A stretch of DNA of 64,000 nucleotides. It comes from a virus. The position numbers and the translations under genes are program-made. Position 1 is the first letter of the stretch. Each line of letters starts with the position of its first letter. The notes under the pieces were generated by a model. The model had not been told where the DNA came from, did no database searches, and saw only the letters and a list, made by a program, of their open reading frames with translations. This document shows, piece after piece, positions 11,363 through 57,837 of this stretch. The DNA is taken from positions 3,952-67,951 of IMG/VR virus record IMGVR_UViG_3300027831_000001; one strand, given 5' to 3'.

Positions 11363-12318
11363 CCGTCTACCCGCCGCAGGACCTGGGCGGAGCTGCCACG
11401 CCGCCGATCGTGATCAATGCCCGGCCACCACTGCCGGGCGTGCCAGCCGAGCCCCAGCTGTGGATCCAGGCCAGCGTGACCAACACGCTCAGCCCGGCGC
11501 CCAAAACGGCCACGATCCGGATCCTGGGCCTCTCGCAGACGACCCGGGACACGATCGCCGGCACGGTGCGATCGGTCGCGCAGTGGCTCCCGCCGCAAGC
11601 GGTCGTCAATGTGGACGGCGTGCTGCGCCCTGGCGGCCAGATCGTGACGTCCACGCTGGCCGGCATGGCGGCCGTGATCCTGGAGGCCGGCTGGGGCGGC
11701 GCGCTGCAAGAGGTCTTCCGCGGGACGGCCACGAGCGTGCGATCGCGACGGCAGGGGCCCGACTGGATCACGGAGATCCAGGCCACCGATGGCGGGTTCC
11801 AGTTGGCCAAGGCCGTGGCGTCAAAGCAGTTCGCGCCCGGCACGACCAGCGGGGCCGTCCTGGCCTACCTGGCCACCACGCTGGGCCTCGATCTCGCGCC
11901 GACCCAGGGACTCGCCGCGCTCCAGGGATTTGTGCTCGTCGGGGGCCTGTCGTGCGTTGGCGACTGTGCGGCCGCGATCCAAGACATGTGCGACGCCCTC
12001 CGGCTCTTGTGGTGGGTGGAGGACGGCCAGATCTGGATCCTGGGCGAGGGCGAGAGCCTGCCGGGCCAGCCACTCGTCGTGTCGCCCGAGCCGCTGCCCA
12101 ACGCGATTCGGCTCTACCAAGAGGCCGAGCCGATCGACGGCCAGGGCCTGCGGATCCGGTGCGCCCTGGCCAGCGCGCTGCGGTGCGGGCACTTGGTCGC
12201 GCTGGCGTCCAGCGAGCAACGAGGGACCTACCGCGTGGAGGCCGTCGAGCACGCGATCGACAACCGCAGCGGCGACATGGCCAGCGCCGCGGTGCTGCGG
12301 TTGTCGAGCCCGATCTAG
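11323..12318 (+). CDS. Baseplate hub protein
   Basis: ATIRILGLS, ILEAGW, F.GT, D.ITEI..TDG, WWVEDGQI and G.YRVEAVEH motifs. Confidence 0.8.
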   Translation: MAALRQYDRGVGLTVYPPQDLGGAATPPIVINARPPLPGVPAEPQLWIQASVTNTLSPAPKTATIRILGLSQTTRDTIAGTVRSVAQWLPPQAVVNVDGVLRPGGQIVTSTLAGMAAVILEAGWGGALQEVFRGTATSVRSRRQGPDWITEIQATDGGFQLAKAVASKQFAPGTTSGAVLAYLATTLGLDLAPTQGLAALQGFVLVGGLSCVGDCAAAIQDMCDALRLLWWVEDGQIWILGEGESLPGQPLVVSPEPLPNAIRLYQEAEPIDGQGLRIRCALASALRCGHLVALASSEQRGTYRVEAVEHAIDNRSGDMASAAVLRLSSPI

Positions 12319-12719
12319 TCCTCCCACTCGTCGGTGTCCGACGGGAGCGGCACGTCAAGTGCCGCGAGCTCCGTTTCCTCCAAAGCCTGGAGCGTGACGT
12401 CGGCGTCGAGCGGGCAGGGCACCGGCGTGGTGGCCGGCAGCAGGACTTCGTAGACGCAGCCGTCGACCGCAAGCGCGTAGCATCCGGGCTCGCCGGCTAC
12501 CGCACGCGAGCGCGGGCCGCCCAACCCGCCGCCGCCACGCAGGCGGTAGGTGTGTCCGTCGATGTCGACGGACGCGGCCCAGCCACTGCCCATGTAGCCG
12601 GTGTACCCGCGCAAGGCGGCGCGCAGTGGTGCCGGGCCATCGACGTCGCGCCACGAGATGGGCCGGAACGCCGAACGAACCGCAAGAGGAGCAGGGGATG
12701 GGATCGTGAATCTGGACAT
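12315..12719 (-). CDS. Hypothetical protein (MSRFTIP...)
   Basis: Shares a CTAG stop with the hub gene; preceded by a long hairpin. Confidence 0.6.
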   Translation of the reverse strand: MSRFTIPSPAPLAVRSAFRPISWRDVDGPAPLRAALRGYTGYMGSGWAASVDIDGHTYRLRGGGGLGGPRSRAVAGEPGCYALAVDGCVYEVLLPATTPVPCPLDADVTLQALEETELAALDVPLPSDTDEWED

Positions 12720-17035: not shown

Positions 17036-17044
17036 CCTCCCGCC

Positions 17045-18593: not shown

Positions 18594-19424
18594 ATGAGTG
18601 CATTCGATGTCCAGCACCGCGACGCCTTCGATTCGCTCGTGGCCGCACGGGATGCCGGCGGGGCCGATCTGGTGCTCACGAGCCCGCCCTACCCGGACGC
18701 GCGGGAGAATCACGAGGGCTATGCGACGTTCGACACCACGCTTGAGGGCTACCACCGGCTGGGCCGCGCCGTGTTCGATGCGCTCAAGCCCGGGGGCGTG
18801 TGCGCGCTCAACGTCGATGGGCCCGTCAAGGTGTGGCGGCCCGAGCTTGGCGAGAGCGAACGGAGCTTGATCGCGTTCGAGGTGGCGCTTGATTGGGCCA
18901 AGGTGATCGGGTTCCGGTACCTAGAGCACTGCGCGTACGTGCGCGATGGTGCACCGGGTCGTTTCTGGGTGCGGTGGCGCAGCGGTTGGGAGCCAGTACA
19001 CGTGTTCGCTCGGCCCGGCGCAAACCCGCACTTTGACCACACGGCCTATCAGACCCCGGCTGTATCGGCGGGCGCACGACAGAAGACGACGACGCGCCAC
19101 CCGGACGGGCGAACGATCAAGAACCCCGCGCACGTACAAGCGGACACGCGACAGGTGACGACGGCTCTGTGGTGCAAGCCAGGGACCACGGAGCAAGAGC
19201 ACCACGCGCCATTCTCCCGCGTTCTCGCCGATGCCTACGTGCTTTGCTACTCCCCGCCCGACGGCCTCGTGTGCGACCCATTCGTTGGCTCCGGCACCGT
19301 AGCCCTGGCCTGCCATCGCCACGGCCGGCGCTTCGTGGGCGGCGACCTCGGCCACCGCGAGCGCGACGGCCGGCGCTGGGTCGACATCGTGAACGAGCAA
19401 CTCGGCCAGGGCCGGCTGTTCTAG
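18594..19424 (+). CDS. DNA methyltransferase (beta class, N4-C/N6-A)
   Basis: TSPPY ... H.APFS ... DPFVGSGT. Confidence 0.9.
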   Translation: MSAFDVQHRDAFDSLVAARDAGGADLVLTSPPYPDARENHEGYATFDTTLEGYHRLGRAVFDALKPGGVCALNVDGPVKVWRPELGESERSLIAFEVALDWAKVIGFRYLEHCAYVRDGAPGRFWVRWRSGWEPVHVFARPGANPHFDHTAYQTPAVSAGARQKTTTRHPDGRTIKNPAHVQADTRQVTTALWCKPGTTEQEHHAPFSRVLADAYVLCYSPPDGLVCDPFVGSGTVALACHRHGRRFVGGDLGHRERDGRRWVDIVNEQLGQGRLF

Positions 19425-19433
19425 CCTCCCGCC

Positions 19434-20129
19434 ATGGCCTTCGTCCCCCCGGTCACGTTCGGCACGATCCCCTGGGCCCAGCGCGAGGGCACGGACCAGA
19501 CGGACCGCGACGCGCCCCTGCTGCCGATCGGGCCGGGGGAGCTGGACGCCGAGACGACGGCCCGCCGCCGCCGGTGGTACCAGCTGAGCAACGCCCCGGG
19601 GTGGGACACCCTGCTGACCCTGATCGGCCAGGGCATGGCCCACATGGAGGCCGCCGTGGGCTCGGTCGATCAAGGCCGATGGCTCGTCAACGCCGAGGGG
19701 ACCGTGTTGGACGAGATCGGCGCGCTCGTGGGGCGCCCGCGGCAGGGCTTGAGCGATGCGCTCTACCGGCTGGCCATCCGGGCCGAGGCCGCGTCACTGC
19801 TCTCGAGCGGCACGATCCCCGAGCTCGTGGAGCTGACGCGATCGCTCCTTGGTGACGACGTGCGGGTGCGCGAGATCTGGCCGGCCACGATCGTGATCTC
19901 GGCGCCCGACGTCGCGACCGACGTGTTCCTTGTTTTGTTGGACGTCCTGGCCGACGTGCCGGCCGCGGGCGTCGGCGCCCTGCTGTCCACCTGGACCGCC
20001 GCCGACGTGGGCGGCTACGCGAGCACGACGGGCGCGACGACGCGCGAGCCTGGCCGCTACGGGAGCACCACGGGGGTCAGCGACTCTCGATCGTGGTACG
20101 CCACCGGGCAGCCGATCGGCGGCGAATAG
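19434..20129 (+). CDS. Baseplate protein (DUF2612/gpI-like)
   Basis: AEG.VLD.IG.LVG.PR.GLSD..YR and PAAGV motifs. Confidence 0.75.
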   Translation: MAFVPPVTFGTIPWAQREGTDQTDRDAPLLPIGPGELDAETTARRRRWYQLSNAPGWDTLLTLIGQGMAHMEAAVGSVDQGRWLVNAEGTVLDEIGALVGRPRQGLSDALYRLAIRAEAASLLSSGTIPELVELTRSLLGDDVRVREIWPATIVISAPDVATDVFLVLLDVLADVPAAGVGALLSTWTAADVGGYASTTGATTREPGRYGSTTGVSDSRSWYATGQPIGGE

Positions 20130-31572: not shown

Positions 31573-31744
31573 CCCATGCCCGCTCTGCGGCTGCCCTGCC
31601 CCGGGCGGCCATGCCTGCTCGACCGTCCCGGCGCTCCCGCCCGTGCCGCTTGTGGTGGACCACCGGGGACGCCGGGCCCTGGTGGTGGCCGAGCCACCGG
31701 CCCCGCGTGAGCAGCGGGGTGAGCCGGTGCGCCGTCGCGGGTAG
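31565..31744 (+). CDS. 59-aa protein (MTSPCPLCG...)
   Basis: Translated by hand; overlaps the upstream stop. Confidence 0.5.
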   Translation: MTSPCPLCGCPAPGGHACSTVPALPPVPLVVDHRGRRALVVAEPPAPREQRGEPVRRRG

Positions 31745-31761
31745 TGTGCTAGGGTGGTCGC

Positions 31762-31858
31762 GCTTGTAGCGGTGCCCTGGTCCGCTGGTAGATGGGGCGC
31801 GCAACACAGGCCAGCCTGTGCGCGATGGGTTCGACTCCGAAAAGCCGGACAAGCAAGC
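31762..31858 (+). ncRNA. Structured tRNA-like RNA 1 (canonical T-loop motif)
   Basis: GTGTGCTAGGGT promoter; GCTTGT/ACAAGC terminal stem; GGGTTCGACTCC at 31827-31838; terminator downstream. Confidence 0.6.
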
Positions 31859-31894
31859 AAGGGCGGGACTCGCAAGGGTTCCGCCCTTCTCTTT
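31859..31894 (+). terminator. Intrinsic terminator
   Basis: AAGGGCGGGAC...GTTCCGCCCTT followed by CTCTTT. Confidence 0.75.
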
Positions 31895-31920
31895 GGTGCC
31901 GGGTAGTGTGCTAGAGTGGC

Positions 31921-32040
31921 CGCGCTGGGGAGCCAGCGCGAAGGTGGCCACCGGGCAGCGATCCAGCCGCGTCGTAGCTCAGCCGGGGAGAGCACCGAGA
32001 TGATCGGAGGACGGCCGCACACCCAAGCGGCCCAGCGCGT
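31921..32040 (+). ncRNA. Structured tRNA-like RNA 2 (canonical D-arm motif)
   Basis: GTGTGCTAGAGT promoter; TAGCTCAGCCGGGGAGAGC at 31975-31993; cloverleaf-like fold with a shortened anticodon arm and a non-canonical T-loop. Confidence 0.6.
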
Positions 32041-32077
32041 GAAGGGCGGGACTTGTAAGGGTTCCGCCCTTCTTTTT
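32041..32077 (+). terminator. Intrinsic terminator (near copy of 31859-31894)
   Basis: GAAGGGCGGGAC...GTTCCGCCCTTC followed by TTTTT. Confidence 0.8.
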
Positions 32078-32098
32078 GGTGCCGGTAGCCTCGCGCCC

Positions 32099-45093: not shown

Positions 45094-45338
45094 TCGATCC
45101 GCGGGACAGGACCGATGCGCAGTTGAGCGCGGCGATCGATCGGGCCTACGTGTTTCACGTGTACCGCGATATGGATGGGCGGACTCGCCCGGTTGCACGG
45201 GAAGCCGCACCGCTGAAAGCGCACGCAGTGGCACGCGAAGCGCTGCGCAAGTCTCCAGACGCATATCAGATCGCCGTGCGGCCAAACTTGACCCCTCCGA
45301 CTTGGACAGCATGGATCTTGCCCGGGGGCCGCCGATGA
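45090..45338 (+). CDS. Hypothetical protein (MIDPRDRT...)
   Basis: ATGA overlaps at both ends. Confidence 0.6.
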   Translation: MIDPRDRTDAQLSAAIDRAYVFHVYRDMDGRTRPVAREAAPLKAHAVAREALRKSPDAYQIAVRPNLTPPTWTAWILPGGRR

Positions 45339-46621
45339 CGCGCGGCAAGACCACGCCCCGCGGCGAAGCCATCGCGGTACGGACCCGCGTGCTCGCGCAG
45401 TCGCTGGGCCAGGCCCGGGTGGACTACTGGGCGGCCCTGCTCGCGCGCCCGCAACTCGCCGCGCCGATCGTCCACGCCGTGCGGCTGGACGTGGAGACGG
45501 GCGGCTGGGAGCGACGCCTGGGCCGGCTGGTCGCGCACGCCCGGACGCTCGTGCAGACCCGGCGGCGCGGCGACGAGATCCGCTACGCCAAGGCATGCCG
45601 GCGCGCGGCCGAGTGGCTGGCCCAGCAGGACCGCGGGTGCGACGTCGCCAATGGTGTCGCCGATGCGATCGCGCTCTGGGCCGGGCGCCGGCTACCGGGC
45701 GATCACCGGTGGGCGGGCCACCGGCTCTACCCGGCCCGCACCCAGAGCCAGCGGTGGCGCCAATACTGGCACGCCGTGGACCACGGACGACGCGAGCGCG
45801 AGCGGCTGCGCAACGAGATCGTGGTGGTCAACGAAGGCCTGGTGATCACGCTGTGCAACCGGTGGATCCCGTGGGCCGAGGGGCACTTGAGCCGCGAGGA
45901 CATCCAGCAGGCCGGGCGGGAGGGGCTGTTCCGAGCCGCAGACCTGTTCGAGCCAGAGCGCGGCTTCCGGTTCTCCACCTACGCGGGCGGGTGGATCCGC
46001 CATCGGGTGTTCCGGCTCCACCAAGAGGGCCGCTCCGACGTCAGGGCCCCAACGGGCGTCCAGATGGTGGCGCTCGCGATCTCGGATCTGGCCGAACGGG
46101 GCGAGCGCGACCCGGCGACGATCCGCGCCGCTCTCCGCCGGCGTGCAGCCGAGAAGCGCGAGGCCGCGATCCGTCTCGCCCGCACGCCCGCGGCCCAGGC
46201 CAAGCTCCGCGCCGCACGGGTGAAGGAGCCGCCGACCGAGGACGCGATCGCGTCGGCGCTCGAGTACCTGGCGAGCCGCACGATCTCAATGGACGCGCGG
46301 CTAGGACGGAGTGAGGAGGGCCGCCCGCAGACCCTGGCCGACCTGCTGCCCGACACGTCGCCGCTGGCCGACGAGGTGATCGATCTGTGCCGACTCGAGG
46401 AGAGGCTGGCCGCCGTGGACACCGAGCGCGTGACGGCGCGGCTGCTCCAGGCCGTGGCGGGACTCGACCCCCGCGACCGAGACCACGTGCGAGCTCGCTA
46501 CTACCGGGGCCGCACGCTGCACAGCCTGGCGGGCGAGCGCGGGACGTCAGCGCGAGACCTAGAGCGACACGAGCAGGCGATCCTGGATCGGCTCCGCGCC
46601 GACGTGGGGATCACGGCATGA
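45335..46621 (+). CDS. Sigma-70-family RNA polymerase sigma factor
   Basis: Region 2 NEGLV...EDIQQAG.EGL.RAAD.FEPERGFRFSTYA..WIR; region 3 ISMDA..G...TLADLLPD; divergent region 4. Confidence 0.9.
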   Translation: MTRGKTTPRGEAIAVRTRVLAQSLGQARVDYWAALLARPQLAAPIVHAVRLDVETGGWERRLGRLVAHARTLVQTRRRGDEIRYAKACRRAAEWLAQQDRGCDVANGVADAIALWAGRRLPGDHRWAGHRLYPARTQSQRWRQYWHAVDHGRRERERLRNEIVVVNEGLVITLCNRWIPWAEGHLSREDIQQAGREGLFRAADLFEPERGFRFSTYAGGWIRHRVFRLHQEGRSDVRAPTGVQMVALAISDLAERGERDPATIRAALRRRAAEKREAAIRLARTPAAQAKLRAARVKEPPTEDAIASALEYLASRTISMDARLGRSEEGRPQTLADLLPDTSPLADEVIDLCRLEERLAAVDTERVTARLLQAVAGLDPRDRDHVRARYYRGRTLHSLAGERGTSARDLERHEQAILDRLRADVGITA

Positions 46622-48973: not shown

Positions 48974-49482
48974 GGCGGCGGCCCAGCACGTGCCCCCAGG
49001 GCCACGCGGTGCGGCGCAATGGCAAGCGCTGGTGGTGCTGGGTCTGCGATCGCGAAGTGGAGCCGCGCGCCCACCCGACGGCCAAGCTTGCCCGCCGCCG
49101 GGTCAAGCCGCTGGGCAGCGCGGAGAAGAGGGCCCGGACGCGCGCGCGGGCGTTCGGCGAGTCGGAGCGCATGGCATGGCTCCACTCGCTCCCATGCGTG
49201 GCCGCCGGGCGACCGGGTCACGTATGCGGCCCGTGGGACATGGAGCGCGGCGGGCCGCACATTCAGGCCGTACACGTGCGAGCGCGCGGGGCCGGTGGCA
49301 CGGCGGATGATGTCGTGCCGGGCTGCTGGGTCCTGCACGAGCAGGCGGGCGAGCGCGGCACGGAGCAGCGCCGACGGTGCGAGGCCGAGCTGGGCCTGGA
49401 TCTCGAGGCCGAAGCGGCGAGGCTTGCCCAGGAGTGGCGCGACTTGTGCCAGGCCGGCGAGTGTGCTAGCGTGGCGGAATGA
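48967..49482 (+). CDS. HNH-like (DUF968/Ref-type) nuclease with an N-terminal Zn ribbon
   Basis: WLHSLPCVA.G...AVHVRARGAGG..DDVVPGC..LH. Confidence 0.6.
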   Translation: MLGRRPSTCPQGHAVRRNGKRWWCWVCDREVEPRAHPTAKLARRRVKPLGSAEKRARTRARAFGESERMAWLHSLPCVAAGRPGHVCGPWDMERGGPHIQAVHVRARGAGGTADDVVPGCWVLHEQAGERGTEQRRRCEAELGLDLEAEAARLAQEWRDLCQAGECASVAE

Positions 49483-52400
49483 GCACGAAAGTTCTATTCC
49501 AACACGCGGACGGCCAGAGCGCCATGATGCTCGTCCAAGAAGGCGACGGCCTGATGATCGAGATCGCGAGCGGCCACCGGATCCTGAGCGTCGCGCTGCC
49601 GGAGGAGCGAAGACGGGAAGTCGCGGCGATCCTGGATCCAGCGCCCGACAGGGGAGTCGAAGATCACGGCATCAAGTGGGAGCCGGCCAGCATGGAGACT
49701 GACGGGTTCGGAGTGGCGCGCGTGACACACTGGCGCACCAAGCCCGACATTGACAAGTCAGACGATCGAGAAGACAGGACGAAGCCCGCGCCCAAGACCT
49801 ACCTATGGCGGCCCGCGGGCGGGGCCTGGTCCTGGGGGATCTGGGTAGGAGGGCGTGGGCTTCCGGTGGGTGTACGGTGCGCGACTGAGGCCGAAGCGCT
49901 TGCCATCACTTGGCAGCACCACGACGAGCAGGTGGCCGACGTGAAGCGCCACGCCGCATGGCTCGCGGACCTGCACCGCGCGGCCGAGCGGGACATCGAC
50001 CGACTGGCCGCCGCTCGTGAGCAGACCGCGGCAGCCGAGCAGGTGGTCGCCACCCTCCAGGCCACGCTCCGCCGAGAGAGGGAGTCGCGAGCCGACGCCC
50101 GAGCCGATGGGGCCGCAGCGCTCGCGCTGGAGATCGACCAAGCCGTGGCCACCCACGCCCCCGACGCCTTCCATGGCGACACCTGGACCACGGTATCGCG
50201 CGTGGAAGCGCTGGCCCAGTGGTGGCACGAGAGCGCCGACGTGCGCGACGAATGGAACGGGTCGCTGGAGGAGCTACGCGCCGCCGCCCGAGCTGAGGAG
50301 CGGGCGGCCGTCGAGCGCGAGCTCGAGTCGGGCCTGCGCGCGCTCGGTCTGCGCCCCCACGGCACCGAGCTCCTCGACCTGGTGCGCACCGTGGCCGAGG
50401 CGCTCGAGGAGCGGCGAGCCGAGGGGCGCCGCGACGTGCTGAAGCGGCTGTTCGTCCACCGGGCCCCAGTCGACTACGTGGCCGACGACGAGACCCATGC
50501 GCTCGTGTACGCCACATACCCGACGTGGGCCGCGGCGGTTGACGCCCGCGATGCCATCGTCGCCCCGGCCTCCCCCAAGGCGGCACCGCCCGCCTCCCAC
50601 GCCGTCCAGCCCGATGTGTGCGCCGCGGAAGCCAAGCGGCAGGTTGCCCGTTTTCATGCGTGGGCCAATGATGTCGCCGACATCCTGGATCGACCGCCCC
50701 GCACCACGGATCCGCTCGAGGACATCAAGACCGAGGTGGTGCGCCTCAAGATCAGCATCGCCGACGCCCGAGCCGAGGGGGTGGAGCAGGGGCGCGCGCA
50801 GGCGCTGTCCGAGACGATGGCCGCGCTCGCCTCGCTACGTTGGGTGCAGGAGTGGTGCCGCGGTCTGCTGGCGTCCGACGACTGGGCCCGCCGAGCGCTC
50901 GACAAGCTCGACGACGTGGAGCGCCGACTCGTGGCCTCGCCACCGGTGAAGGGAGAGTGGCAGCCCGAACACGGGCCCGACCAGCGCGGCCCCGACTACT
51001 ACGCCGCGCGAGCGTGCGCGGAGAGCCGCGGCGAGCTCGTGGAAGAACACGAGCTCGGGCAGGTCACCCGCTACCGGTGCAGCTGCGCTGACTGCCCCGG
51101 GCTGCCTTGGGCGCCGTCCAGCAAGCAGCCGCACCCGTGCGGGAAGACCCCGGCGGCCCCTCTCCAGGGAGGGACGGACGCCGACCTGAGCGATGAGGCT
51201 TGTCCGTGCTGCGAAGAAGAGGTTGATGACCGGAAGAACTTCTGCCCAGACTGCGACCTGGACGTCTGCGACGAATGCTTCGACGGGCAGCGTTGCGGCG
51301 CATGTGCCTCATCAGTGGCCGCGCCCGTCGCCACTCCCACGGCTCCCAAGGAGCCCGAGCGGTACGTCACCGGGGCCGAGCTCGAGCGCGACATGGCGAA
51401 CGCCGACGCCATCGGAGACGCGGCGCGAAGCTACGCCGAGGCCTACGACACCGCTGGTGGCGACGATTTCGACCCGCGAGCCCACGCCGCCTTCTCGCGC
51501 CTACTCGACGCAGCTCGGCGGTGGATGACCGCGGATCCCAAGGGGCCCGAGCCCGACGAAAAGCACGTGGCGCACACGCCCACGGGCAGGTACTGCAAAG
51601 CCTGCTACTCGCCGCTGTACGGGCCCGACGACATGCCGACCGACCTCGCCATCAAGTTGCGGTGGGCAACCGCGCTGGGCATGGCGACCCAAGGGCTCCG
51701 GGCGGGGCACGAGTCCGGCGAGATGCGGAGCTACCCCACGTCGACCGAGCGGTGGGGGCTCCCGCTCCCCTTCACGTGGGCGGTCGAGGATGGCCGCTGG
51801 TGCGTGAAGCGTCCCCACCCGCACGCGCCATGGCCCGTAGACGTGGGAGCCATCATCGACCGTCGCAACGCAGAGGACCCGGCCCCAAGCGCTCCCCAGG
51901 GAGAGCCGGACGCCGGGAGACTGCGCGCGCTCACCAATGCCGCGGAGGCGTACGGGCAGGCTCGACACTACGGCGCGCCGACGGAACACGCCGAAGCGCT
52001 TCTCGTCGAAGCCTCCCGAGCCTTCGCCACCCCCACGGCTCCCCAGGAGCCCGAGCCCGAGACCCCCGACGAGCGCGAGGCGGCCATCGTACGACGGCTG
52101 GCCGGCGAGTGGGGGGAGATCGAGGTGGGGCCCACCGAGTCGATCGACGACGTGGTGAGCCACATCCACGGCGCAGGGACGGTCATCATGCGCATGGTGA
52201 ACGAGGTTGGCGACTGGCGTGACTGGGCTCTTCGCCTCGCCGGCCGCAAGATGTCAGACTGGCGCAGCGACAAGGCGACGCGCGAGGCCGTGGAGAAGCT
52301 GCTGGCCGCCGCTGTGAAGCGCGGCCGCACCCCCGAGGACGTCGAGCGCGACTATGCAGCAGGCCCCGAGGATTTCGGCGGCGAGGACTACTCGGCCGAG

Positions 52401-52715
52401 GCGCCCGACGAGACTACCCGCCCCGCCCCGCTCGCGGCCGTGCCCAGGGTGGGCGCCCCTCCCGAGCCGTGGACCGTGGTCGAAGGCGGCGGGCTCGGTC
52501 GTGATGACCTGCGGCTCATCTCGCGCCCGTGGCACTCGGGCACCATGTACGCCGGAGTCTCGTACAAGGGCTGGCTGACGTGCTTCGTGGACGACGCGAG
52601 CATGCCCACAGCGATGCCCCCCGAGGCCGCGGCGTGGCTGCTCGCCAAGACCAGCGGACGCGACCCACGTGAACCGGTGCGCCCCATGAGCGACGAGCCC
52701 GGGGGTGCCCCGTGA
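49479..52715 (+). CDS. Large (1078 aa) mosaic non-structural protein
   Basis: Class B promoter; coiled coils, Zn fingers and repeated Pro-rich linkers. Confidence 0.8.
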   Translation: MSTKVLFQHADGQSAMMLVQEGDGLMIEIASGHRILSVALPEERRREVAAILDPAPDRGVEDHGIKWEPASMETDGFGVARVTHWRTKPDIDKSDDREDRTKPAPKTYLWRPAGGAWSWGIWVGGRGLPVGVRCATEAEALAITWQHHDEQVADVKRHAAWLADLHRAAERDIDRLAAAREQTAAAEQVVATLQATLRRERESRADARADGAAALALEIDQAVATHAPDAFHGDTWTTVSRVEALAQWWHESADVRDEWNGSLEELRAAARAEERAAVERELESGLRALGLRPHGTELLDLVRTVAEALEERRAEGRRDVLKRLFVHRAPVDYVADDETHALVYATYPTWAAAVDARDAIVAPASPKAAPPASHAVQPDVCAAEAKRQVARFHAWANDVADILDRPPRTTDPLEDIKTEVVRLKISIADARAEGVEQGRAQALSETMAALASLRWVQEWCRGLLASDDWARRALDKLDDVERRLVASPPVKGEWQPEHGPDQRGPDYYAARACAESRGELVEEHELGQVTRYRCSCADCPGLPWAPSSKQPHPCGKTPAAPLQGGTDADLSDEACPCCEEEVDDRKNFCPDCDLDVCDECFDGQRCGACASSVAAPVATPTAPKEPERYVTGAELERDMANADAIGDAARSYAEAYDTAGGDDFDPRAHAAFSRLLDAARRWMTADPKGPEPDEKHVAHTPTGRYCKACYSPLYGPDDMPTDLAIKLRWATALGMATQGLRAGHESGEMRSYPTSTERWGLPLPFTWAVEDGRWCVKRPHPHAPWPVDVGAIIDRRNAEDPAPSAPQGEPDAGRLRALTNAAEAYGQARHYGAPTEHAEALLVEASRAFATPTAPQEPEPETPDEREAAIVRRLAGEWGEIEVGPTESIDDVVSHIHGAGTVIMRMVNEVGDWRDWALRLAGRKMSDWRSDKATREAVEKLLAAAVKRGRTPEDVERDYAAGPEDFGGEDYSAEAPDETTRPAPLAAVPRVGAPPEPWTVVEGGGLGRDDLRLISRPWHSGTMYAGVSYKGWLTCFVDDASMPTAMPPEAAAWLLAKTSGRDPREPVRPMSDEPGGAP

Positions 52716-53212
52716 GCGTCGAAGAGTTCGCCGAGAGCATCGGCCGGGCCCGAGCCGCGCTTCCGGGCGGCACCCGCACTCTCGCCGGTGCCTGCCGCTT
52801 CTACGCGCCCACGGCCGCGGTGGAGATCGTGGGGGGCCGCGTGCAGGTGACCGCGAGCCGCGGCGTGCTCACGCTGCGCCGCGAGAGCACGGCCGCCCCG
52901 TGGACGATGAGGGTCGCGCTCGACGGCGTGGCGTGGCCCGACGACGGCGACGCCCCGACCGACGAGCCCTCGCTCGTGGCCGCCCTTGCTGCGGTCACCG
53001 GATGCCCGAGCAGCGCTCTCGAAAGCACTGCCGCGAGCCTGCGGTGGCTGGGCTCGCTCGGCGCAGACGTGGGCGACGAGCCGGAGCCACACGAAACCGA
53101 CATGTGTTGCGTCTGCGATGGCGAAGGCGACGTCACAGAAGGCCACACGACGTGGACGTGCACCGGCTGCGGAGGCTGCGGCTACAAAAGCGCGGCACCC
53201 CTGCGCCGGTAG
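52712..53212 (+). CDS. Protein with a C-terminal DnaJ-type Zn finger
   Basis: CVCDGEG and CTGCGGCG; GTGA overlap. Confidence 0.65.
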   Translation: MSVEEFAESIGRARAALPGGTRTLAGACRFYAPTAAVEIVGGRVQVTASRGVLTLRRESTAAPWTMRVALDGVAWPDDGDAPTDEPSLVAALAAVTGCPSSALESTAASLRWLGSLGADVGDEPEPHETDMCCVCDGEGDVTEGHTTWTCTGCGGCGYKSAAPLRR

Positions 53213-53221
53213 GCTCCAGGC

Positions 53222-53656
53222 ATGCCCTGGATGCTCGCCCGGCTGACCGATGATCTGACCGCCGACGGGGCCTGGCACGGCCTCGATCGCTACGACTCCG
53301 CGGCACCCGATAGCCAGGGCGCGGGGTCGATCTTCTTTCCCGTAGGGGGCCAGGGGGCCCTGGTGACCCGCGACCAGGAGGTCCTGATCCGGGTCGTGTG
53401 GTGCACGGCCACCGGCGGTTTCGTCAGCGGGGCCGGGACGTCCTGCACGGTGGAGCCGGTGACGATCGATCGCTTGCCCCACCCGATCAGCGGCTCGGTC
53501 CAGGAGCGGCTCAGCGTGGGCGAGGCACGAGAGAACGCGGCTTGGCAGCCCCTGTTCTTGTCCGTCGGTCCCTCGGCGCTGGCCAGCGTGCGGCTCAGCG
53601 ACATGGTCTACGCCAGCGCGGCCCGGGTCGCGGTCTACTACTGGACGGCGGCATGA
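53222..53656 (+). CDS. Putative virion protein
   Basis: Class A promoter; beta-rich. Confidence 0.6.
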   Translation: MPWMLARLTDDLTADGAWHGLDRYDSAAPDSQGAGSIFFPVGGQGALVTRDQEVLIRVVWCTATGGFVSGAGTSCTVEPVTIDRLPHPISGSVQERLSVGEARENAAWQPLFLSVGPSALASVRLSDMVYASAARVAVYYWTAA

Positions 53657-55323
53657 CATTGCGCGCGGCAGGGTGGAGCGCGGCCCGAGCTCGGGCCAGT
53701 GGGGCCGCGGCGGCCAGCATCACGGCCGCCGGCGAGGGCGTGGCCGCGTCAGGTGTCCGCACCCTTTTGGCGCTCGCGCCTGCGTCCACGCTCGCCGCGG
53801 GGACCGACGTGCCCTCCTACTGGGCCGCGCGCTCGGGTCGGGCGCTCTCCACCTACTGGGGTGCCTACGCGCCCCTGGGGGCCACTGCTTACCTCTGGTG
53901 GGCACATGAGGGCAGCACCGACCCCGGCGCTTGGGTGGCCGCGCTCGCGGGCCTTACGGGGCACGAGGTCACCCTTGCCGCCGGCAACCGCACGGCGGAG
54001 CAGGTCGCCACCGAGACGGCCGCGGTCGTGGCCGGAATCACGGGCTGGAGCGCGACTCAGTCGGTTGGCGATCTCACCATCACTGGCCCCGCCGCCGTGA
54101 CGGTTGGCCCGGGTTGGGATGCTGGCGCCGCGGGGTCAATGGTCGGCATGCGCTCGATCACCGTCGCGGACCCGCCGACCGAAGGCCCGATAACGACCGT
54201 GCTGGCCCAGCACTTGCCGAATCCCGGAATCGCACGACCGATCATCGCCGTGGACGTGTTCATCGGCACGACGGCCAACGCGGCCGACCGCTGGCGCGTG
54301 GCCCTCTGGACCGCCGTTGGCGGCACTGACACGCCGGTAGGTGAGACGCTGCTGGTCGATCTGGGCCAGGTGCCAGCGTCGCAGATCGTCTCGCGCTCGT
54401 GGGCTCGGATCCCGATGCCGCCCGGCCAGGTGGTCACCGCGGACCAGGACATGTGGTGCAGCCTCAAGTCGGGGCTGGGCCTCACGGACGTTGGCGGCCG
54501 ACTCACGGGCGACCCGTTGATCGGCGACTGGACGGCCCAGAGCCTGGAGCAGGACTCCGGAACCCAGGACATCGACCCGGACGCCACGGTGGCCTGGCCC
54601 GCGACGTGGCCGGGTGACACCGGCCCGCAAAACCCCTTCGTGTGCGGCGTCCGACTGGTGATCGCTCGAACGGTGCACGACGGCTCCCACCACTCGGAGG
54701 CCGACCCCGCGATCTTCGGTACCCACGTGGCCGTCGGAGCACTCGCGAGCACGACCGACCTCGACTCCCACCTGCTCATGGTGGCCCCCTCGCCCGCGTT
54801 CCTCGGCATGATCATCGGCGGCGAGGGCTGGGCCGTCGGAGCCACGCGCGGGACTCAGCCGCGCCTCGGGGTGATGATCGGTGGCAGCGCGGTGGAGCCT
54901 GTAGATCCCGACGGCGCGACGCTCCTGGTGGACGGTGGGCAGCTCGTCGGGAGCAGCACGACCGCGTGGGAAGATCGGACTCATGCTCCCGTCGCGTGGG
55001 CGGCCAACGCCGCGACCACGTGGATCGCGAAGTGCGACGACGCCACGGCGGGTACCAACATCGCTTTTGCTCAGACGCCCGACCAGGTGGCCGCAAGCCC
55101 GGCGGACACGCCCGCGGACTGGCTCCCCGCCGTGAATGGAGGCATGCCGTTCGGCTCGGAATACGAGGTCTTCCCCGCCGACTCGGCGGTTTATAACGAC
55201 ACAGATCCGACGACGGCTTTTCAGTCGCCTTTTGTGGCCGATCCAGACGACGCGCGCCCGACCAATATCCCGGGGGCGCGCATCCTGTGGTGGATCCCGG
55301 GCATCACGGCGACGCCGCTCTAG
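53653..55323 (+). CDS. Putative virion appendage / receptor-binding protein
   Basis: A/G/T/W-rich with two similar beta modules; coupled to a late-class gene. Confidence 0.6.
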   Translation: MTLRAAGWSAARARASGAAAASITAAGEGVAASGVRTLLALAPASTLAAGTDVPSYWAARSGRALSTYWGAYAPLGATAYLWWAHEGSTDPGAWVAALAGLTGHEVTLAAGNRTAEQVATETAAVVAGITGWSATQSVGDLTITGPAAVTVGPGWDAGAAGSMVGMRSITVADPPTEGPITTVLAQHLPNPGIARPIIAVDVFIGTTANAADRWRVALWTAVGGTDTPVGETLLVDLGQVPASQIVSRSWARIPMPPGQVVTADQDMWCSLKSGLGLTDVGGRLTGDPLIGDWTAQSLEQDSGTQDIDPDATVAWPATWPGDTGPQNPFVCGVRLVIARTVHDGSHHSEADPAIFGTHVAVGALASTTDLDSHLLMVAPSPAFLGMIIGGEGWAVGATRGTQPRLGVMIGGSAVEPVDPDGATLLVDGGQLVGSSTTAWEDRTHAPVAWAANAATTWIAKCDDATAGTNIAFAQTPDQVAASPADTPADWLPAVNGGMPFGSEYEVFPADSAVYNDTDPTTAFQSPFVADPDDARPTNIPGARILWWIPGITATPL

Positions 55324-55349
55324 CCGTCTCGGGCGAGCCGTGCTAGCGT
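55321..55349 (+). promoter_or_regulatory. Class B promoter with no start codon at the usual position
   Basis: TAGCCG-17 nt (ending GTGC)-TAGCGT. Confidence 0.65.
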
Positions 55350-55355
55350 GGCATC

Positions 55356-55435
55356 ACCCAGGCGGGTCGGAATGGTCCGTGCTCGTGTGCTCATCAAGGG
55401 GCTGTCCGGGGAGACCCGGGTGGCCCCTTGTCTTT
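55356..55435 (+). ncRNA. Candidate antisense sRNA with a tandem GTGCTCGT-GTGCTCAT seed
   Basis: Promoter, two small 5' hairpins, unpaired seed, then hairpin 55395-55430 followed by TCTTT. Confidence 0.55.
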
Positions 55436-55560
55436 CAGCGCTCCAGCGACGCGTCCCACTCACGCTCCGCGCGTTGACGCTCCAGCGGGGTCATGCCGGC
55501 ACGAAGCCGCCGCGAGTCGCCCAGATCCTCGCGGTCGCGGTTGAAGCCCGGGCGCCTCAC
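55435..55560 (-). CDS. 41-aa peptide (MRRPGFNRD...)
   Basis: GTGA overlap; translated by hand. Confidence 0.45.
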   Translation of the reverse strand: MRRPGFNRDREDLGDSRRLRAGMTPLERQRAEREWDASLER

Positions 55561-55811
55561 GGATCACCCCGCAGCAAGGCGACCACGTGGTCCGGCGTGG
55601 GCGGCAAGGGGCGGACGCGGGCGCGCTCGGCCTCACCGGCGGGCGTCCACTCCACGGCGGCCCACTCCTCGCCGGTCTCGCGCTTGCGGCCTGCGCTGGT
55701 CTGCGCCGGCAGGGCAACGATCCATCCGCGAGCCAGCAAGGCCTTCGCGGTGCTGAGCGAGCGGGCGCGGCCGGTGGCCAGGGCGGAACGGATTGGCTTG
55801 GACAACGTCAT
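55557..55811 (-). CDS. Hypothetical protein (winged-helix-like)
   Basis: AL.ARGWI...WTPAG; ATGA overlap. Confidence 0.55.
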   Translation of the reverse strand: MTLSKPIRSALATGRARSLSTAKALLARGWIVALPAQTSAGRKRETGEEWAAVEWTPAGEAERARVRPLPPTPDHVVALLRGDP

Positions 55812-55906
55812 GGCAGCACCGCCCAGGTCAAGCCGGCCATGATGGCCAGGGTGAGCAACAGCGCGAGGACGAGCAGGCCAAGATCGGTGAAGAGTTGACG
55901 GACCAT
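55808..55906 (-). CDS. 32-aa membrane peptide
   Basis: MVRQLFTDLGLLVLALLLTLAIMAGLTWAVLP; fills the gap exactly. Confidence 0.55.
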   Translation of the reverse strand: MVRQLFTDLGLLVLALLLTLAIMAGLTWAVLP

Positions 55907-56248
55907 CTACCCCTCCTCCCATCCTGGTAGGCCGGAGGCGATGTAGTCGTGCACGAGACGTACCGTGCTGGCCTGCTCCATGGTCCACGCATGCGGGACG
56001 GGGCACCCGGATTCATGCCACCGGGCTACGCGGGCCCATTCGACCATCGCACGCTCGGCCGCCCGCAAGGCCGCGTCGTCCCGCTCCCGCCGCATCGTGG
56101 CCGCGTCCGCCTCCGCCATGAGGGCCCGCTGCTCCGCTCTCGCCGCGGTCTCGCTAGCGGCGCGCAGACGGACCGCCAAGTCGCGCACCTGCTCGCGAAG
56201 CTCCGTGATCCTGCCGGCCAGCGCGGAAAACTTCTCTTTTGTGCTCAT
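55907..56248 (-). CDS. Coiled-coil hypothetical protein
   Basis: Class B promoter; ATGAGCAC start. Confidence 0.65.
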   Translation of the reverse strand: MSTKEKFSALAGRITELREQVRDLAVRLRAASETAARAEQRALMAEADAATMRRERDDAALRAAERAMVEWARVARWHESGCPVPHAWTMEQASTVRLVHDYIASGLPGWEEG

Positions 56249-56312
56249 GCTGCATAGGTAGCACGCTAGACCGCCGCAGACAACCGCTCACTACGCTCAC
56301 TACGCTCCGGTC

Positions 56313-57797
56313 GTGCCCTACGGCCGCCCGATCACCTCTGCCGCACTGGCCCAGGCCGTGGCTCGCCACGACCGCGGACCGGGCCCGGTGCAGCGGTGCG
56401 ATCGGATGGCTTGGCGCGCCGACGCGAGCCGCAAGATCGTCCACCCCAACGGCATGGTGGATGTGCCGGGCGTGGCCTGTCGGACCGGCGTGCAGGTGTA
56501 CGACGAGCAGGGCCCCGACGGCCGCCCGGTCGTGACCCGCGAGCTCCGGCCGCCGTCGGAGGTCTTCGACCCCGCAAGCCTTGCGACGTTGAACGGCTCG
56601 CCGGTGACGATCGAGCACCCGGGCCAAGGCCCCGATCACGACGCTGGCCTGGGCGAGGTCACGACGGCCAACGCCCGCGAGCTCACCCACGGCTGGGTGC
56701 TGAGCGTGGAGCCGCACGAGGCCGACGGCCTGGTCTGGGTATGGCTGCGGCTTGCGAGCGAGGACGTCTTGGCCGCCGTGTCGGGCGGCAAGGTCGAGCT
56801 GAGCTGCGGCTACACGGCCACGCTGGCCGACCCGGCCGATCCCCAGTGGGCCGCGCTGGTGGCCTTGATCGGGCCCGAGCCCGGACTGGCCGCGAACGGC
56901 GACCGGTACGACCTGATCCAGACCTCGATTCGCTACAACCACCTGGCGATCGTCGATGCCGCGCGCGCGGGACCGATCGCTAGGCTCCACCTCGACAGCA
57001 AGGGCCGATCCATGAAGACCAAGATCACGATCAAGCGCGACGGCAAGACCACCACGGGCGAGCTACCGACGTGGATCGTCGATGCGGCGGCCAAGCATGC
57101 CGTGGATCGCAAGGATGCCGACGGCGTGCTGGGGGTCGCGATCGAGGGCAAGCCCGAGATGATGCTTCCCGAGGAGATGGTCAACACCATGCTGGCCGCG
57201 ATCGGCATGGGCGGCAGCGGAGGCCCGAGCGCGCCCGAGCCCCAGATCACGCCCGACGCTGACCCGATGGCCGAGCCGCCCGCCATGGTGGCTGACGCCG
57301 ACGAAGAGGAGCCCGCGGCCATGAGGGCCGACGCGATCCGCAAGCTCGTGCAGGCCGAGATCAAGGCCGCGTTGCCGACCGTTCAGGCCCAGGTGCGTGA
57401 CAGCGTCACCGCGTCGGCCCGCGAGCGGCAGGCCGTCGAGCGCCTGGCCCTCCCGGTGCTGGGCCACCGGTTCGACTACGCGGCCCACGACCTGCACGGG
57501 ATCGCCGTGGAGGTCATCAAGGTCGACGGCTCGCCCAAGCTCGAGCAGGCCAAGGCCCTGGCCGAGCGCGCCCGCAAGGGCGACCAGGCCGCGGGAGGGC
57601 GCCTCGCTCAGCTCATGGAAGACGCGCTTGATCGGCGGCGCGACGCGGAGGACACGAGCGGCGCGCTCGGGGCCGCGATGTTCGACGTTGCGGCCAGCTT
57701 GCGGCAGGACGCGGAGGAGCCGGGCGAGAGCCTGGACGATCTGCGGGCCCGCAAGCGCGACACGGCCACCCGAGCCAAGCCCAAGAACGCGGCCTAG
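56313..57797 (+). CDS. Prohead protease/scaffold (DUF2213-type)
   Basis: RTGVQ.Y, RPP.EVF, PVT.EHP, ELSCGY and NHLAIV..ARAG. Confidence 0.9.
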   Translation: MPYGRPITSAALAQAVARHDRGPGPVQRCDRMAWRADASRKIVHPNGMVDVPGVACRTGVQVYDEQGPDGRPVVTRELRPPSEVFDPASLATLNGSPVTIEHPGQGPDHDAGLGEVTTANARELTHGWVLSVEPHEADGLVWVWLRLASEDVLAAVSGGKVELSCGYTATLADPADPQWAALVALIGPEPGLAANGDRYDLIQTSIRYNHLAIVDAARAGPIARLHLDSKGRSMKTKITIKRDGKTTTGELPTWIVDAAAKHAVDRKDADGVLGVAIEGKPEMMLPEEMVNTMLAAIGMGGSGGPSAPEPQITPDADPMAEPPAMVADADEEEPAAMRADAIRKLVQAEIKAALPTVQAQVRDSVTASARERQAVERLALPVLGHRFDYAAHDLHGIAVEVIKVDGSPKLEQAKALAERARKGDQAAGGRLAQLMEDALDRRRDAEDTSGALGAAMFDVAASLRQDAEEPGESLDDLRARKRDTATRAKPKNAA

Positions 57798-57837
57798 TCG
57801 CCCGATCGCCAACCCCCCACGAATCCACGAGATCACC

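What the first reader, a model, noticed from the sequence alone, without database searches (positions are those of the whole stretch)
55321..55435. Candidate master-switch sRNA antisense to the shared start octamer of about 17 non-structural genes
Seen: a class B promoter (TAGCCG-17 nt-TAGCGT) with no start codon at the usual +6/7 position. It is followed by two tiny hairpins (ACCC/GGGT, CGGA/TCCG), the tandem 8-mers GTGCTCGT-GTGCTCAT (55379-55394), and a strong hairpin plus TCTTT. GUGCUCAU is the exact complement of AUGAGCAC; GUGCUCGU pairs with it through one G-U. Genes starting ATGAGCAC: 1867, 2106, 8605, 10510, 13767, 15095, 32615, 38472, 40671, 47866, 49479, 56248. Genes starting GTGAGCAC: 183, 933, 1279, 13030, 62532. 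No late-class gene starts this way. Inference: on leaderless mRNAs the start codon is the 5' end, so one RNA could block initiation on a whole regulon (early shut-off or RNA-based immunity). This is conceptually like the P4 CI and P1 C4 RNAs but with many dispersed targets. Alternative: the seed is only the reverse strand of a 24-codon ORF (55394-55320, MSTRART...).
Basis: partly seen in the sequence, partly recalled or inferred. Interest (0 to 1): 0.88.

Follow-up and report, generated by a model that had tools for sequence, protein, structure and literature searches.

The report
Orphan promoter-terminator small RNA gene in phage
A metagenomic phage carries a short promoter-to-terminator unit with no protein-coding frame, probably a small RNA of about 80 bases, and one exposed stretch of it is the exact complement of the first eight bases shared by many of the phage's leaderless early messages; whether it regulates them is untested.

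Summary
At 55321-55349 there is a full member of this phage's "class B" promoter family (cTAGCCg, 17 nt, GTGCTAGCGT). No start codon lies 6-8 nt downstream. The tandem 8-mers sit at 55379-55394, followed by a 16-bp hairpin.

ATGAGCAC occurs 17 times in the window against 1.7 expected. All 12 listed ATG starts and all 5 listed GTG starts exist.

The unit most likely makes a non-coding RNA of about 81 nt:
- Two other class B promoters without a start codon drive short terminated units (31.7-32.1 kb).
- Contigs from four metagenome runs (two studies) align to the module, in three of them exactly from 55320 to 55435.
- Their 4-nt or 2-nt insertions break the rival 24-codon minus ORF.

The "master switch" role is unproven:
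- The first 8-mer is buried in a hairpin and interrupted in relatives.
- Only 9 of 23 class B starts carry the exact octamer.
- The RNA shares its promoter class with its proposed targets.
- One orthologue in a relative starts ATGAGCGA.
- Only the second 8-mer is partly exposed, and it shows no listed change in relatives.

This is a new member of a known kind. The regulon idea has a probability of about 0.15.

The parts
53653..55323 (+). Upstream protein gene (556 aa, no Pfam or PHROG family). Its TAG stop (55321-55323) is the first half of the -35-like hexamer.
   Evidence: GC3 frame plot; ORF list; family scans empty
55321..55326 (+). -35-like hexamer TAGCCG (cTAGCCg), 17 nt upstream of the -10
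   Evidence: The same cTAGCC element stands 17-18 nt upstream of the -10 at class B promoters 8605, 18594, 24539 and 44033.
55340..55349 (+). Extended -10 element GTGCTAGCGT of the class B family
   Evidence: 13 nt (55340-55352) are identical to the promoters of genes 16403 and 49479. TGCTAGCGT also precedes the leaderless starts 8605, 29616 and 29665.
55356..55436 (+). Predicted non-coding RNA of about 81 nt. The start is inferred from the 6-7 nt spacing of the family, the end from the T-rich tail.
   Evidence: Spacing in 23 class B units. Fold -45.3 kcal/mol. For 55358-55442: -47.7 kcal/mol, z = -4.4. No Rfam family.
55362..55386 (+). Hairpin 1; its 3' arm is 8-mer 1 (GTGCTCGT, 55379-55386)
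   Evidence: MFE and pairing probabilities. Relatives differ here by 4 of the listed substitutions plus 4 inserted bases, yet the variant still folds into a hairpin.
55387..55394 (+). 8-mer 2, GTGCTCAT, the exact complement of ATGAGCAC, in the linker between hairpin 1 and the terminator
   Evidence: Unpaired probabilities 0.98, 0.10, 0.03, 0.56, 0.59, 1.0, 0.93, 1.0. No change listed here in relatives (6 of 12 substitutions were not displayed).
55395..55436 (+). Terminator: 16-bp stem with three G-U pairs, GAGA loop, tail TCTTTC. Shared with the convergent minus-strand cassette.
   Evidence: + strand -30.3 kcal/mol with a continuous stem. - strand -25.2 kcal/mol with a 3x3 internal loop and no T tail. 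Not listed by the simple terminator scan, which needs 5 T in 8.
55435..55560 (-). Last ORF (41 codons) of the convergent minus-strand cassette 56248->55435; it ends at the foot of the hairpin
   Evidence: GTGA start/stop overlap with the preceding ORF. Relatives carry a 3-nt, in-frame insertion.
55320..55394 (-).
   Evidence: GC3 0.62; no promoter or Shine-Dalgarno sequence upstream. Insertions of 4 nt (X2, X3, X5) or 2 nt (one X4 contig) inside it in relatives.

Best explanation
The segment is an independent small-RNA transcription unit placed in the 3' untranslated region of the upstream gene.

How it is built:
- A class B promoter (cTAGCCg, 17 nt, GTGCTAGCGT) overlaps the stop codon of gene 53653..55323.
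- By the family's fixed 6-7 nt spacing, it should start an RNA at about A55356.
- No start codon is there, and no frame closes before the terminator.
- The RNA would run about 81 nt: a variable 5' hairpin, a short linker, and a strong hairpin with a T-rich tail. That hairpin also ends the upstream operon and, less well, the convergent minus-strand cassette.

What is shown and what is inferred:
- Shown by sequence: the promoter match, the absence of an ORF, the hairpins and the retention of the module in relatives.
- Inferred: that the promoter fires and that the RNA ends at the hairpin.
- Not established: its function.

The single most specific hypothesis is that the partly exposed linker GUGCUCAU pairs with the 5'-terminal AUGAGCAC (or AUGAGUGC through G-U pairs) of leaderless class B and C messages and lowers their translation. 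I rate that at about 0.15-0.2. I rate an unrelated or absent function as more likely in sum.
For: Promoter:
- TGCTAnnn[T/A] occurs 24 times in the whole 67,951-bp genome.
- 17 of the 24 have ATG or GTG 6-8 nt downstream opening a gene-like ORF (16 from the ORF filter, plus 44755 by inspection); the filtered set lists 23 class B units under the wider pattern TGCTAnnnn.
- The copy at 55341 carries both the -35-like element and 13 nt identical to two working-type copies.

Analogy:
- Three of the seven copies without such a start, 31747, 31909 and 55341, have the full promoter context and sit between genes; the other four are overlapping or reverse-strand matches around the 8605 promoter or lack that context.
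- The first two drive tandem units of about 110-150 nt that end in hairpin-plus-T-tract terminators.

Non-coding:
- There is no start codon at +6 to +8.
- The minus ORF has GC3 of 0.62.
- Relatives carry indels that are not multiples of three.

Strand:
- The hairpin has three G-U pairs, so it is continuous only as + strand RNA (-30.3 against -25.2 kcal/mol).
- Only the + strand has a T-rich tail.

Conservation:
- In Logan contigs of runs X2, X3 and X5 (one study), a piece aligns exactly to 55320-55435 with 12 substitutions and 4 inserted bases. In X4 (a second study), two contigs cover at least 55353-55380.
- In X2, X3 and X5 the upstream gene aligns only in islands.
- All listed changes fall between 55352 and 55380. 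None is listed at 55381-55404.
- The variant rebuilt from those changes still folds as hairpin 1, linker and terminator (-44.5 kcal/mol).
Against: - No RNA evidence of any kind: no listed run holding this DNA is on record as RNA.
- The T tail is weak (4 T in the 8 bases after the full stem), and the simple terminator scan did not list the site.
- The promoter could be a relic of a gene displaced by the convergent cassette. If so, the transcript would have no function.
- Conservation in relatives (about 86-90%) is no higher than in the neighbouring coding pieces at 55441-55842 (86-92%).
- 6 of the 12 substitutions in the module were not displayed, so conservation of the promoter, 8-mer 2 and the stem is an inference.
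- Only about three variant sequences from two studies were seen.
Confidence: 0.62

Rival explanations
1. The RNA is a class-wide translational regulator. GUGCUCAU (and perhaps GUGCUCGU) pairs with the 5'-terminal AUGAGCAC or GUGAGCAC of about 14 leaderless early messages. This blocks 70S binding and gives shut-off, feedback or immunity.
For: - 8-mer 2 is the exact complement of the class B consensus at +1 to +8.
- It lies in the linker before the terminator, and its 3' half is unpaired.
- No change is listed in it in relatives, while the 30 nt before it changed heavily.
- The chance of the exact 8-mer in a 40-nt body is about 5e-4.
- By inspection of the 23 starts, 18 can form at least 7 contiguous pairs from the 5' end if G-U pairs are allowed. 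The commonest variant, AGUGC, pairs through two G-U pairs.
- The three ORF-less class B units lack AGCAC at +4 to +8. The octamer is therefore a feature of the messages, not a requirement of the promoter.
- Structure at a leaderless 5' end hinders its translation (PMC8459731, passages read).
Against: - 8-mer 1 is fully paired and interrupted by insertions in relatives.
- Only 9 of 23 class B starts are exact. Information content is 2.5 bits at +4 but only about 0.8 bits at each of +5 to +8. That looks like a translation or initiation context rather than a fixed target.
- The late class has its own start context (ATG C/G C), with no cognate RNA proposed.
- +6 and +7 covary as CA or TG (p = 0.0025). 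That gives GCAC or GTGC, the same duplex DNA word in either orientation, so a DNA-level reading also fits.
- CA-rich sequence after the start enhances leaderless translation (PMC9031893, passages read).
- The five GTGAGCAC/ATGAGCACCGCAACC starts are paralogues that share a promoter and N-terminus.
- 3 of the 17 listed starts are not at a 5' end.
- The L096 orthologue of gene 56248 starts ATGAGCGA.
- The RNA is driven by the same promoter class as its targets.
- An unconstrained duplex scan is uninformative at 71% GC: mean -25 kcal/mol, and no gene that starts with the octamer is among the 40 best windows; the only octamer copies there are 37258, which is not a gene start, and the RNA's own antisense.
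Confidence: 0.15
2. There is no independent RNA. The region is only the 3' untranslated region and terminator of the 49479-55323 operon and of the convergent cassette. The promoter-like sequence is inactive or a relic of a displaced gene. The anti-octamer is chance, or the decayed start of a former minus-strand class B gene.
For: - The site lies at a junction between a + operon and a minus-strand cassette whose content varies in relatives. In X3 and X5, 202 nt at 55875-56076 are replaced by 662 other letters.
- The minus-strand sequence TTGATGAGCAC resembles the TTGAATGAGCAC just before and at the start of gene 10510.
- About 0.2 anti-octamers are expected by chance in all uncovered DNA.
- GTGCT, part of both 8-mers, is also the core of the class B -10.
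Against: - The promoter match is complete: -35-like element, 17-nt spacer, and 13 identical bases with two gene-driving copies.
- From base composition I estimate about 0.3 chance copies of TGCTAGCGT in the genome (my arithmetic, no call), against six seen.
- The module, promoter included, aligns in relatives.
- Two other ORF-less class B units show that the phage uses this design.
- No -10 element lies upstream of the minus-strand ATG.
Confidence: 0.17
3. The RNA is made but acts locally. Its 3' hairpin is fully complementary to the 3' end of the convergent cassette's message (56248->55435, which includes a 32-codon hydrophobic ORF at 55808-55906). Duplex formation or convergent transcription would tune that cassette, as with 3'-overlapping antitoxin RNAs.
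For: - The two transcription units converge on one hairpin, with an overlap of about 36 nt.
- The cassette has its own class B promoter at 56263 and a small membrane-type ORF.
Against: - The overlap is only the terminator stem, which is internally paired in both RNAs.
- The hydrophobic ORF lies about 370 nt away.
- No family match for any cassette protein tested: 84 aa and 113 aa.
- Nothing here tests the idea.
Confidence: 0.05
4. The minus-strand 24-codon ORF (55394..55320, MSTRART...) is a real small protein gene, and the 8-mers are simply its first codons.
For: It begins with the favoured ATGAGCAC.
Against: - GC3 is 0.62 against 0.82-0.93 for the genes.
- The ORF sits directly after a hairpin with no -10 or Shine-Dalgarno sequence.
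- Relatives have +4 nt or +2 nt inside it.
Confidence: 0.01

Closest known systems
sRNAs embedded in a gene's 3' end with their own promoter and the gene's terminator (DapZ and MicL type; recalled, no call)
   Same: The promoter sits at the very end of the upstream coding sequence. The short RNA shares the parent message's terminator. A single-stranded stretch lies just before the terminator hairpin.
   Different: This one is phage-borne, uses a phage-specific leaderless-type promoter, and shares its terminator with a convergent cassette. Expression and targets are unknown.
Phage lambda OOP RNA (recalled, no call)
   Same: A phage RNA of about 80 nt with its own promoter and terminator, placed at the end of a gene.
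   Different: OOP is antisense in cis to cII. Here nothing is encoded opposite, apart from a rejected 24-codon ORF.
P4 CI and P1/P7 C4 immunity RNAs
   Same: A small phage RNA proposed to pair with repeated short target sites and block expression of several genes.
   Different: As I recall, those RNAs are cut out of a longer transcript and act on sites within one operon. Here there is an own promoter, the proposed targets are dispersed 5' ends, and no Rfam family matches.
Mycobacterial sRNA B11 with a putative leaderless target (PMC10470900, passages read)
   Same: An sRNA with short complementarity (6 nt) early in the coding sequence of a leaderless message (sigM).
   Different: B11 uses C-rich loops mainly against ribosome-binding sites. 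That leaderless case is a single predicted site, shown in a supplementary figure I could not open. It is not a 5'-terminal class-wide seed.

Membership tests
Class B leaderless-type promoter family of this phage (sigma-70-like, TGn-extended -10) | GTGC + TAnnnT -10 element | tested here: met
   GTGCTAGCGT at 55340-55349. It is identical to the copies upstream of 8605, 16403, 29616, 29665 and 49479.
Class B leaderless-type promoter family of this phage (sigma-70-like, TGn-extended -10) | -35-like element (cTAGCc or TTGAC) 17-18 nt upstream | tested here: met
   cTAGCCg with a 17-nt spacer, as at 8605, 18594, 24539 and 44033.
Class B leaderless-type promoter family of this phage (sigma-70-like, TGn-extended -10) | ATG or GTG 6-8 nt after the -10 | tested here: not met
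   ACC/CCC at that position. The same holds for the two units at 31747 and 31909.
Class B leaderless-type promoter family of this phage (sigma-70-like, TGn-extended -10) | Transcription actually starts there | not testable with these tools
   No listed run is on record as RNA.
Intrinsic (Rho-independent) terminator | GC-rich stem-loop | tested here: met
   16-bp stem, -30.3 kcal/mol, 0 of 200 shuffles as stable.
Intrinsic (Rho-independent) terminator | U tract directly after the stem | tested here: inconclusive
   The tail is UCUUUC, and UUG of the stem foot adds two more U. The consensus scan (5 T in 8) did not list the site. The phage's other small units end in UUCUCUUU and UUCUUUUU.
Trans-acting base-pairing sRNA | Single-stranded seed | tested here: inconclusive
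   8-mer 2 has unpaired probabilities of 0.03-1.0, with its 3' half open. 8-mer 1 is closed at 7 of 8 positions.
Trans-acting base-pairing sRNA | Seed conserved, or covarying with targets, in relatives | tested here: inconclusive
   No change is listed at 55381-55404 in contigs of 4 runs, but 6 of 12 substitutions were not displayed.
Trans-acting base-pairing sRNA | Target expression depends on the seed | not testable with these tools
   Needs reporters or an infection system. The host is unknown.
Any curated RNA family (Rfam 15, which as I recall includes the phage C4 antisense RNA) | Covariance-model match | tested here: not met
   0 matches at gathering score in the whole window. At E up to 10, the 11 weak hits mostly cover the terminator hairpin; the best is 17.1 bits against a cut-off of 75.
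Small protein gene (24 codons, minus strand) | Reading frame kept in relatives, gene-like codon bias, and a start signal | tested here: not met
   +4 or +2 nt inside it in relatives. GC3 is 0.62, and there is no -10 or Shine-Dalgarno sequence.

The most novel reading that the evidence does not exclude
A phage small RNA whose exposed GUGCUCAU pairs with the extreme 5' end (start codon plus five bases) of a whole class of leaderless phage messages. This would give class-wide translational damping or shut-off. It would be the first RNA regulator shown to act on the 5' terminus of leaderless mRNAs, and the early-class start context AUGAGCAC would be a shared address label.
Probability: 0.15. Interest if true: 0.85.

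Novelty: new member of a known kind. Interest (0 to 1): 0.48.

Why it matters
Regulation of leaderless messages is poorly understood. A 2022 review (PMC9031893, passages read) lists the effect of sRNAs on leaderless initiation as "Unknown" and knows of no report of RNAs or proteins binding such messages. Of the papers listed by my two literature searches, the two I opened gave only one predicted case, B11 and sigM.

This phage is an unusually clean system:
- It has dozens of promoter-adjacent, apparently leaderless genes in two or three promoter classes, each with its own start context.
- It has one short RNA that is complementary to the early-class 5' end.

Even if the RNA proves irrelevant, two findings are testable and bear on how leaderless messages are selected. 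One is the class-specific start context (ATGAGCAC against ATG C/G C). The other is the covariation at +6 and +7.

If only the modest reading is true, this is one more uncharacterised phage sRNA.

Tried and rejected
Relatives:
- megablast and tblastn against GenBank phages found nothing close. For the protease, all 1210 matching records were below 60% identity and the best listed was 37%.
- Protein-guided scans of viral contigs found nothing.
- With alignment A1, the best viral-contig hit was 38% identical.
- In genome contigs, 15 loci were found at 34-38%, most of them titled as alphaproteobacteria. This is only a weak hint at the host.
- In metagenome contigs, the useful hit was L096 at 77%. 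It stops about 500 nt short of the module.
- Exact-pattern scans for the linker and for the promoter plus 8-mer 2 found nothing.
- The promoter-plus-octamer pattern gave 18 single hits in viral contigs, at 36-72% GC and one copy each. I judged these to be chance.
- The class B and late motifs are absent from the 95 loci fetched up to that point, apart from one stray match.

Expression: no RNA holder was listed. I did not use this as evidence either way.

Target prediction: a duplex-energy scan of the RNA's 5' part against the whole genome does not discriminate at 71% GC. The mean is -25 kcal/mol (sd 4.6), and the leaderless 5' ends do not stand out.

Antitermination leader (lambda 6S type) feeding the head genes: rejected.
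- The protease gene has its own conserved late-type -10 (TACGCT + 6 nt + GTG), in the window and in L096.
- Four minus-strand genes lie in between.

Other negatives:
- tRNA or tmRNA: ARAGORN found none in the window.
- A + strand small ORF: the only ATG (55372) opens a frame that runs through the terminator.
- Paralogues of the RNA body in the genome: none; only the promoter recurs.

Limits on what I could see:
- Papers: PMC9031893, PMC10470900 and PMC8459731 were read as passages only. All other papers appeared in search listings only.
Full report
CONTEXT

The window is bases 3952-67951 of a single 67,951-bp contig, with about 71% G+C.
- It encodes a DUF2213 head protease, a cement protein, a PF09950 major capsid protein, a tape-measure protein and its own sigma factor.
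- It is therefore a tailed phage. The only run holding the full stretch is a wetland metagenome.
- It has no close relative in GenBank phages or IMG/VR.

Yes. One search shows, on the + strand:
- the stop codon TAG of gene 53653..55323 (reading frame confirmed by the GC3 frame plot) inside cTAGCCg (55321-55326);
- a 17-nt spacer;
- GTGCTAGCGT (55340-55349);
- no ATG or GTG at the +6/+7 position (ACC, CCC);
- the small hairpins;
- GTGCTCGT-GTGCTCAT at 55379-55394;
- a 16-bp hairpin (55395-55430) followed by TCTTTC.

Octamer counts:
- ATGAGCAC occurs 17 times against 1.71 expected; 0 of 100 shuffles reach 17.
- GTGAGCAC occurs 8 times against 2.97 expected; 3 of 100 shuffles reach 8.
- All 17 listed gene starts exist and open ORFs with gene-like GC3.

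THE PROMOTER FAMILY

Scanning the whole genome for TGCTAnnn[T/A] gives 24 sites.
- With the wider definition TGCTAnnnn, followed 5-8 nt later by ATG or GTG opening an ORF of at least 40 codons with GC3 of at least 0.78, there are 23 class B units.
- The spacing is 6 or 7 nt in 22 of them, so the start codon should be the 5' end of the message.
- The copy at 55341 shares 13 identical bases with the promoters of genes 16403 and 49479.
- It has the same cTAGCC -35-like element at 17 nt as four other members.
- Only three well-formed class B promoters lack a start codon: 31747, 31909 and 55341.
- The first two head tandem short units that end in hairpin-plus-T-tract terminators.

So the phage demonstrably couples this promoter class to short non-coding units. 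The finding is a third such unit.

THE PREDICTED RNA

From A55356 to the T-rich tail is about 81 nt.
- It folds into hairpin 1 (55362-55386), a short linker and the terminator hairpin: -45.3 kcal/mol. For 55358-55442 the values are -47.7 kcal/mol and z = -4.4.
- The terminator stem contains three G-U pairs. As + strand RNA it is therefore continuous (-30.3 kcal/mol). As - strand RNA it has a 3x3 internal loop (-25.2 kcal/mol) and no T tail.
- This asymmetry favours a + strand role, although the consensus terminator scan did not list the site.
- No Rfam family matches, and there is no tRNA or tmRNA.

RELATIVES

Four metagenome runs from two studies hold diverged copies. I laid their Logan contigs on 54900-57800 at 80% or better likeness.
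- In X2, X3 and X5 one contig piece aligns to exactly 55320-55435, with 12 substitutions and 4 inserted bases. The end of the upstream gene aligns only in islands.
- X4 holds two further contigs across the module.
- The displayed changes are 55352, 55353, 55367, 55371, 55374 and 55375, plus insertions after 55376, 55377, 55379 and 55380.
- The RNA's 5' hairpin is therefore plastic, and 8-mer 1 is interrupted.
- Nothing is listed for 55381-55404, which covers 8-mer 2 and the 5' arm of the stem.
- Six substitutions were not displayed. They may lie near the ends of the piece (my inference from the from_end column), so conservation of the promoter and the 3' arm is not shown.
- The variant rebuilt by coordinate still folds into the same three-part shape (-44.5 kcal/mol).
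- The insertions total 4 nt or 2 nt inside the 24-codon minus ORF, which therefore does not keep its frame.
- By contrast, the neighbouring 41-codon minus ORF has a 3-nt insertion.

WHAT EXPLAINS THE SHARED OCTAMER?

It is the consensus of the class B start context.
- Counts in the 23 class B units: A at +4 in 22; G at +5 in 18; C at +6 in 16 (T in 6); A at +7 in 13 (G in 7); C at +8 in 17. Nothing is conserved from +9 on.
- The exact octamer is present in 9 of 23 class B starts against 0 of 19 late-class starts (p = 0.002).
- The late class has its own context: TAG(C/G)CT, a C-rich 6-7 nt, then ATG(C/G)C.
- The five GTGAGCAC/ATGAGCACCGCAACC genes are paralogues with a common TTGAC-type promoter.
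- The three ORF-less class B units lack AGCAC at +4 to +8. The octamer therefore belongs to the messages, not to the promoter.
- A translation-level cause is plausible. CA-rich sequence after the start enhances leaderless translation, and 5' structure hinders it (PMC9031893 and PMC8459731, passages read).
- Positions +6 and +7 covary (CA 11, TG 5, CG 2, TA 0; p = 0.0025). GCAC and GTGC are the same duplex word in opposite orientation, which suggests a DNA-level element. Both also pair with GUGCUCAU if G-U pairs are allowed, which fits the RNA model. The data cannot separate the two readings.

THE MASTER-SWITCH IDEA

For:
- exact complementarity of the partly exposed 8-mer 2;
- its location in the linker;
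- no listed change in relatives;
- a chance probability of about 5e-4 for this RNA body;
- 18 of 23 class B 5' ends able to form at least 7 pairs (inspection).

Against:
- 8-mer 1 is buried and not conserved.
- The consensus is degenerate.
- The RNA is wired to the same promoter class as its targets.
- The orthologue of gene 56248 in L096 (protease 77% identical) starts ATGAGCGA behind a conserved class B promoter.
- About 0.2 anti-octamers are expected by chance across all uncovered DNA.
- GTGCT is also the core of the class B -10, so a decayed promoter or gene-start copy at this cassette junction is possible.
- Energy-based target ranking is uninformative at this G+C content.

I put the model at about 0.15.

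VERDICT

- An independent small-RNA gene is the best reading (about 0.6). It resembles sRNAs embedded in a 3' end with their own promoter.
- The regulon-wide antisense function is an attractive, testable but unproven hypothesis.
- Two literature searches and the passages read turned up no demonstrated RNA regulator of leaderless 5' ends. The idea would be new if true.
- Decisive data are missing: transcript ends, and seed-target covariation in the 57-89% relatives.

Noticed in passing
window 31720-32090 (+): Two tandem short units. Each has a class B promoter (GGGTAGTGTGCTAG.GTGG) without a start codon and a near-identical hairpin-plus-T-tract terminator. Unit 1 contains a T-arm-like GGGTTCGACTCC and unit 2 a D-arm-like GTAGCTCAGCC..GGAGAGCAC. 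ARAGORN calls no tRNA, and Rfam gives only sub-threshold terminator-type hits.
   Followed up: partly
window, 19 sites, e.g. 5558-5572, 6017-6031, 17033-17047, 19422-19436: Late-class start context TAG(C/G)CT + C-rich 6-7 nt (often CCCGCC) + ATG(C/G)C, with no Shine-Dalgarno sequence. Often the TAG directly follows the end of the preceding gene (its stop codon, as read from the gene calls). CCUCC equals the anti-Shine-Dalgarno sequence rather than its complement, so either each late gene is separately transcribed as a leaderless message or this is a re-initiation signal.
   Followed up: partly
class B starts, positions +6 and +7 (one search list): Covariation CA (11), TG (5), CG (2), TA (0), p = 0.0025. 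So +5 to +8 reads GCAC or GTGC. In the GCAC form it makes an inverted repeat GTGCT-N14/15-AGCAC with the extended -10, spanning the -10 to +8. This could be an operator-like element.
   Followed up: partly
window 183-, 1279-, 13030-, 13996-, 32615+, 62532- and genome positions before the window: A family of paralogous small genes (44-98 codons, N-terminus MSTAT-like). Each has the same AT-richer promoter, ttttcGGTTGAC..N..TAGCTT + 7 nt + GTG/ATG, often back to back with a late-class start (gtcaaccgaaaa on the other strand).
   Followed up: no
window 55435-56248 (-): A four-ORF minus-strand cassette (113, 32, 84 and 41 codons) with its own class B promoter. The 32-codon ORF is strongly hydrophobic. 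In runs X3 and X5, 202 nt at 55875-56076 are replaced by 662 other letters, so the cassette is mosaic among relatives. No family matches for the 113- and 84-aa products.
   Followed up: partly
window 45335-46621 (+): A phage-encoded sigma factor: Sigma70 region 2 above and region 4 just below the Pfam cut-off; PHROG 351. It is a candidate reader of one of the phage-specific promoter classes.
   Followed up: no
window 12495-12530 (+): The best non-self duplex partner of the RNA's 5' part in the unconstrained scan (-51.2 kcal/mol against a genome mean of -25). It lies antisense to or within the ORF 12315..12614. Probably a high-GC artefact.
   Followed up: no
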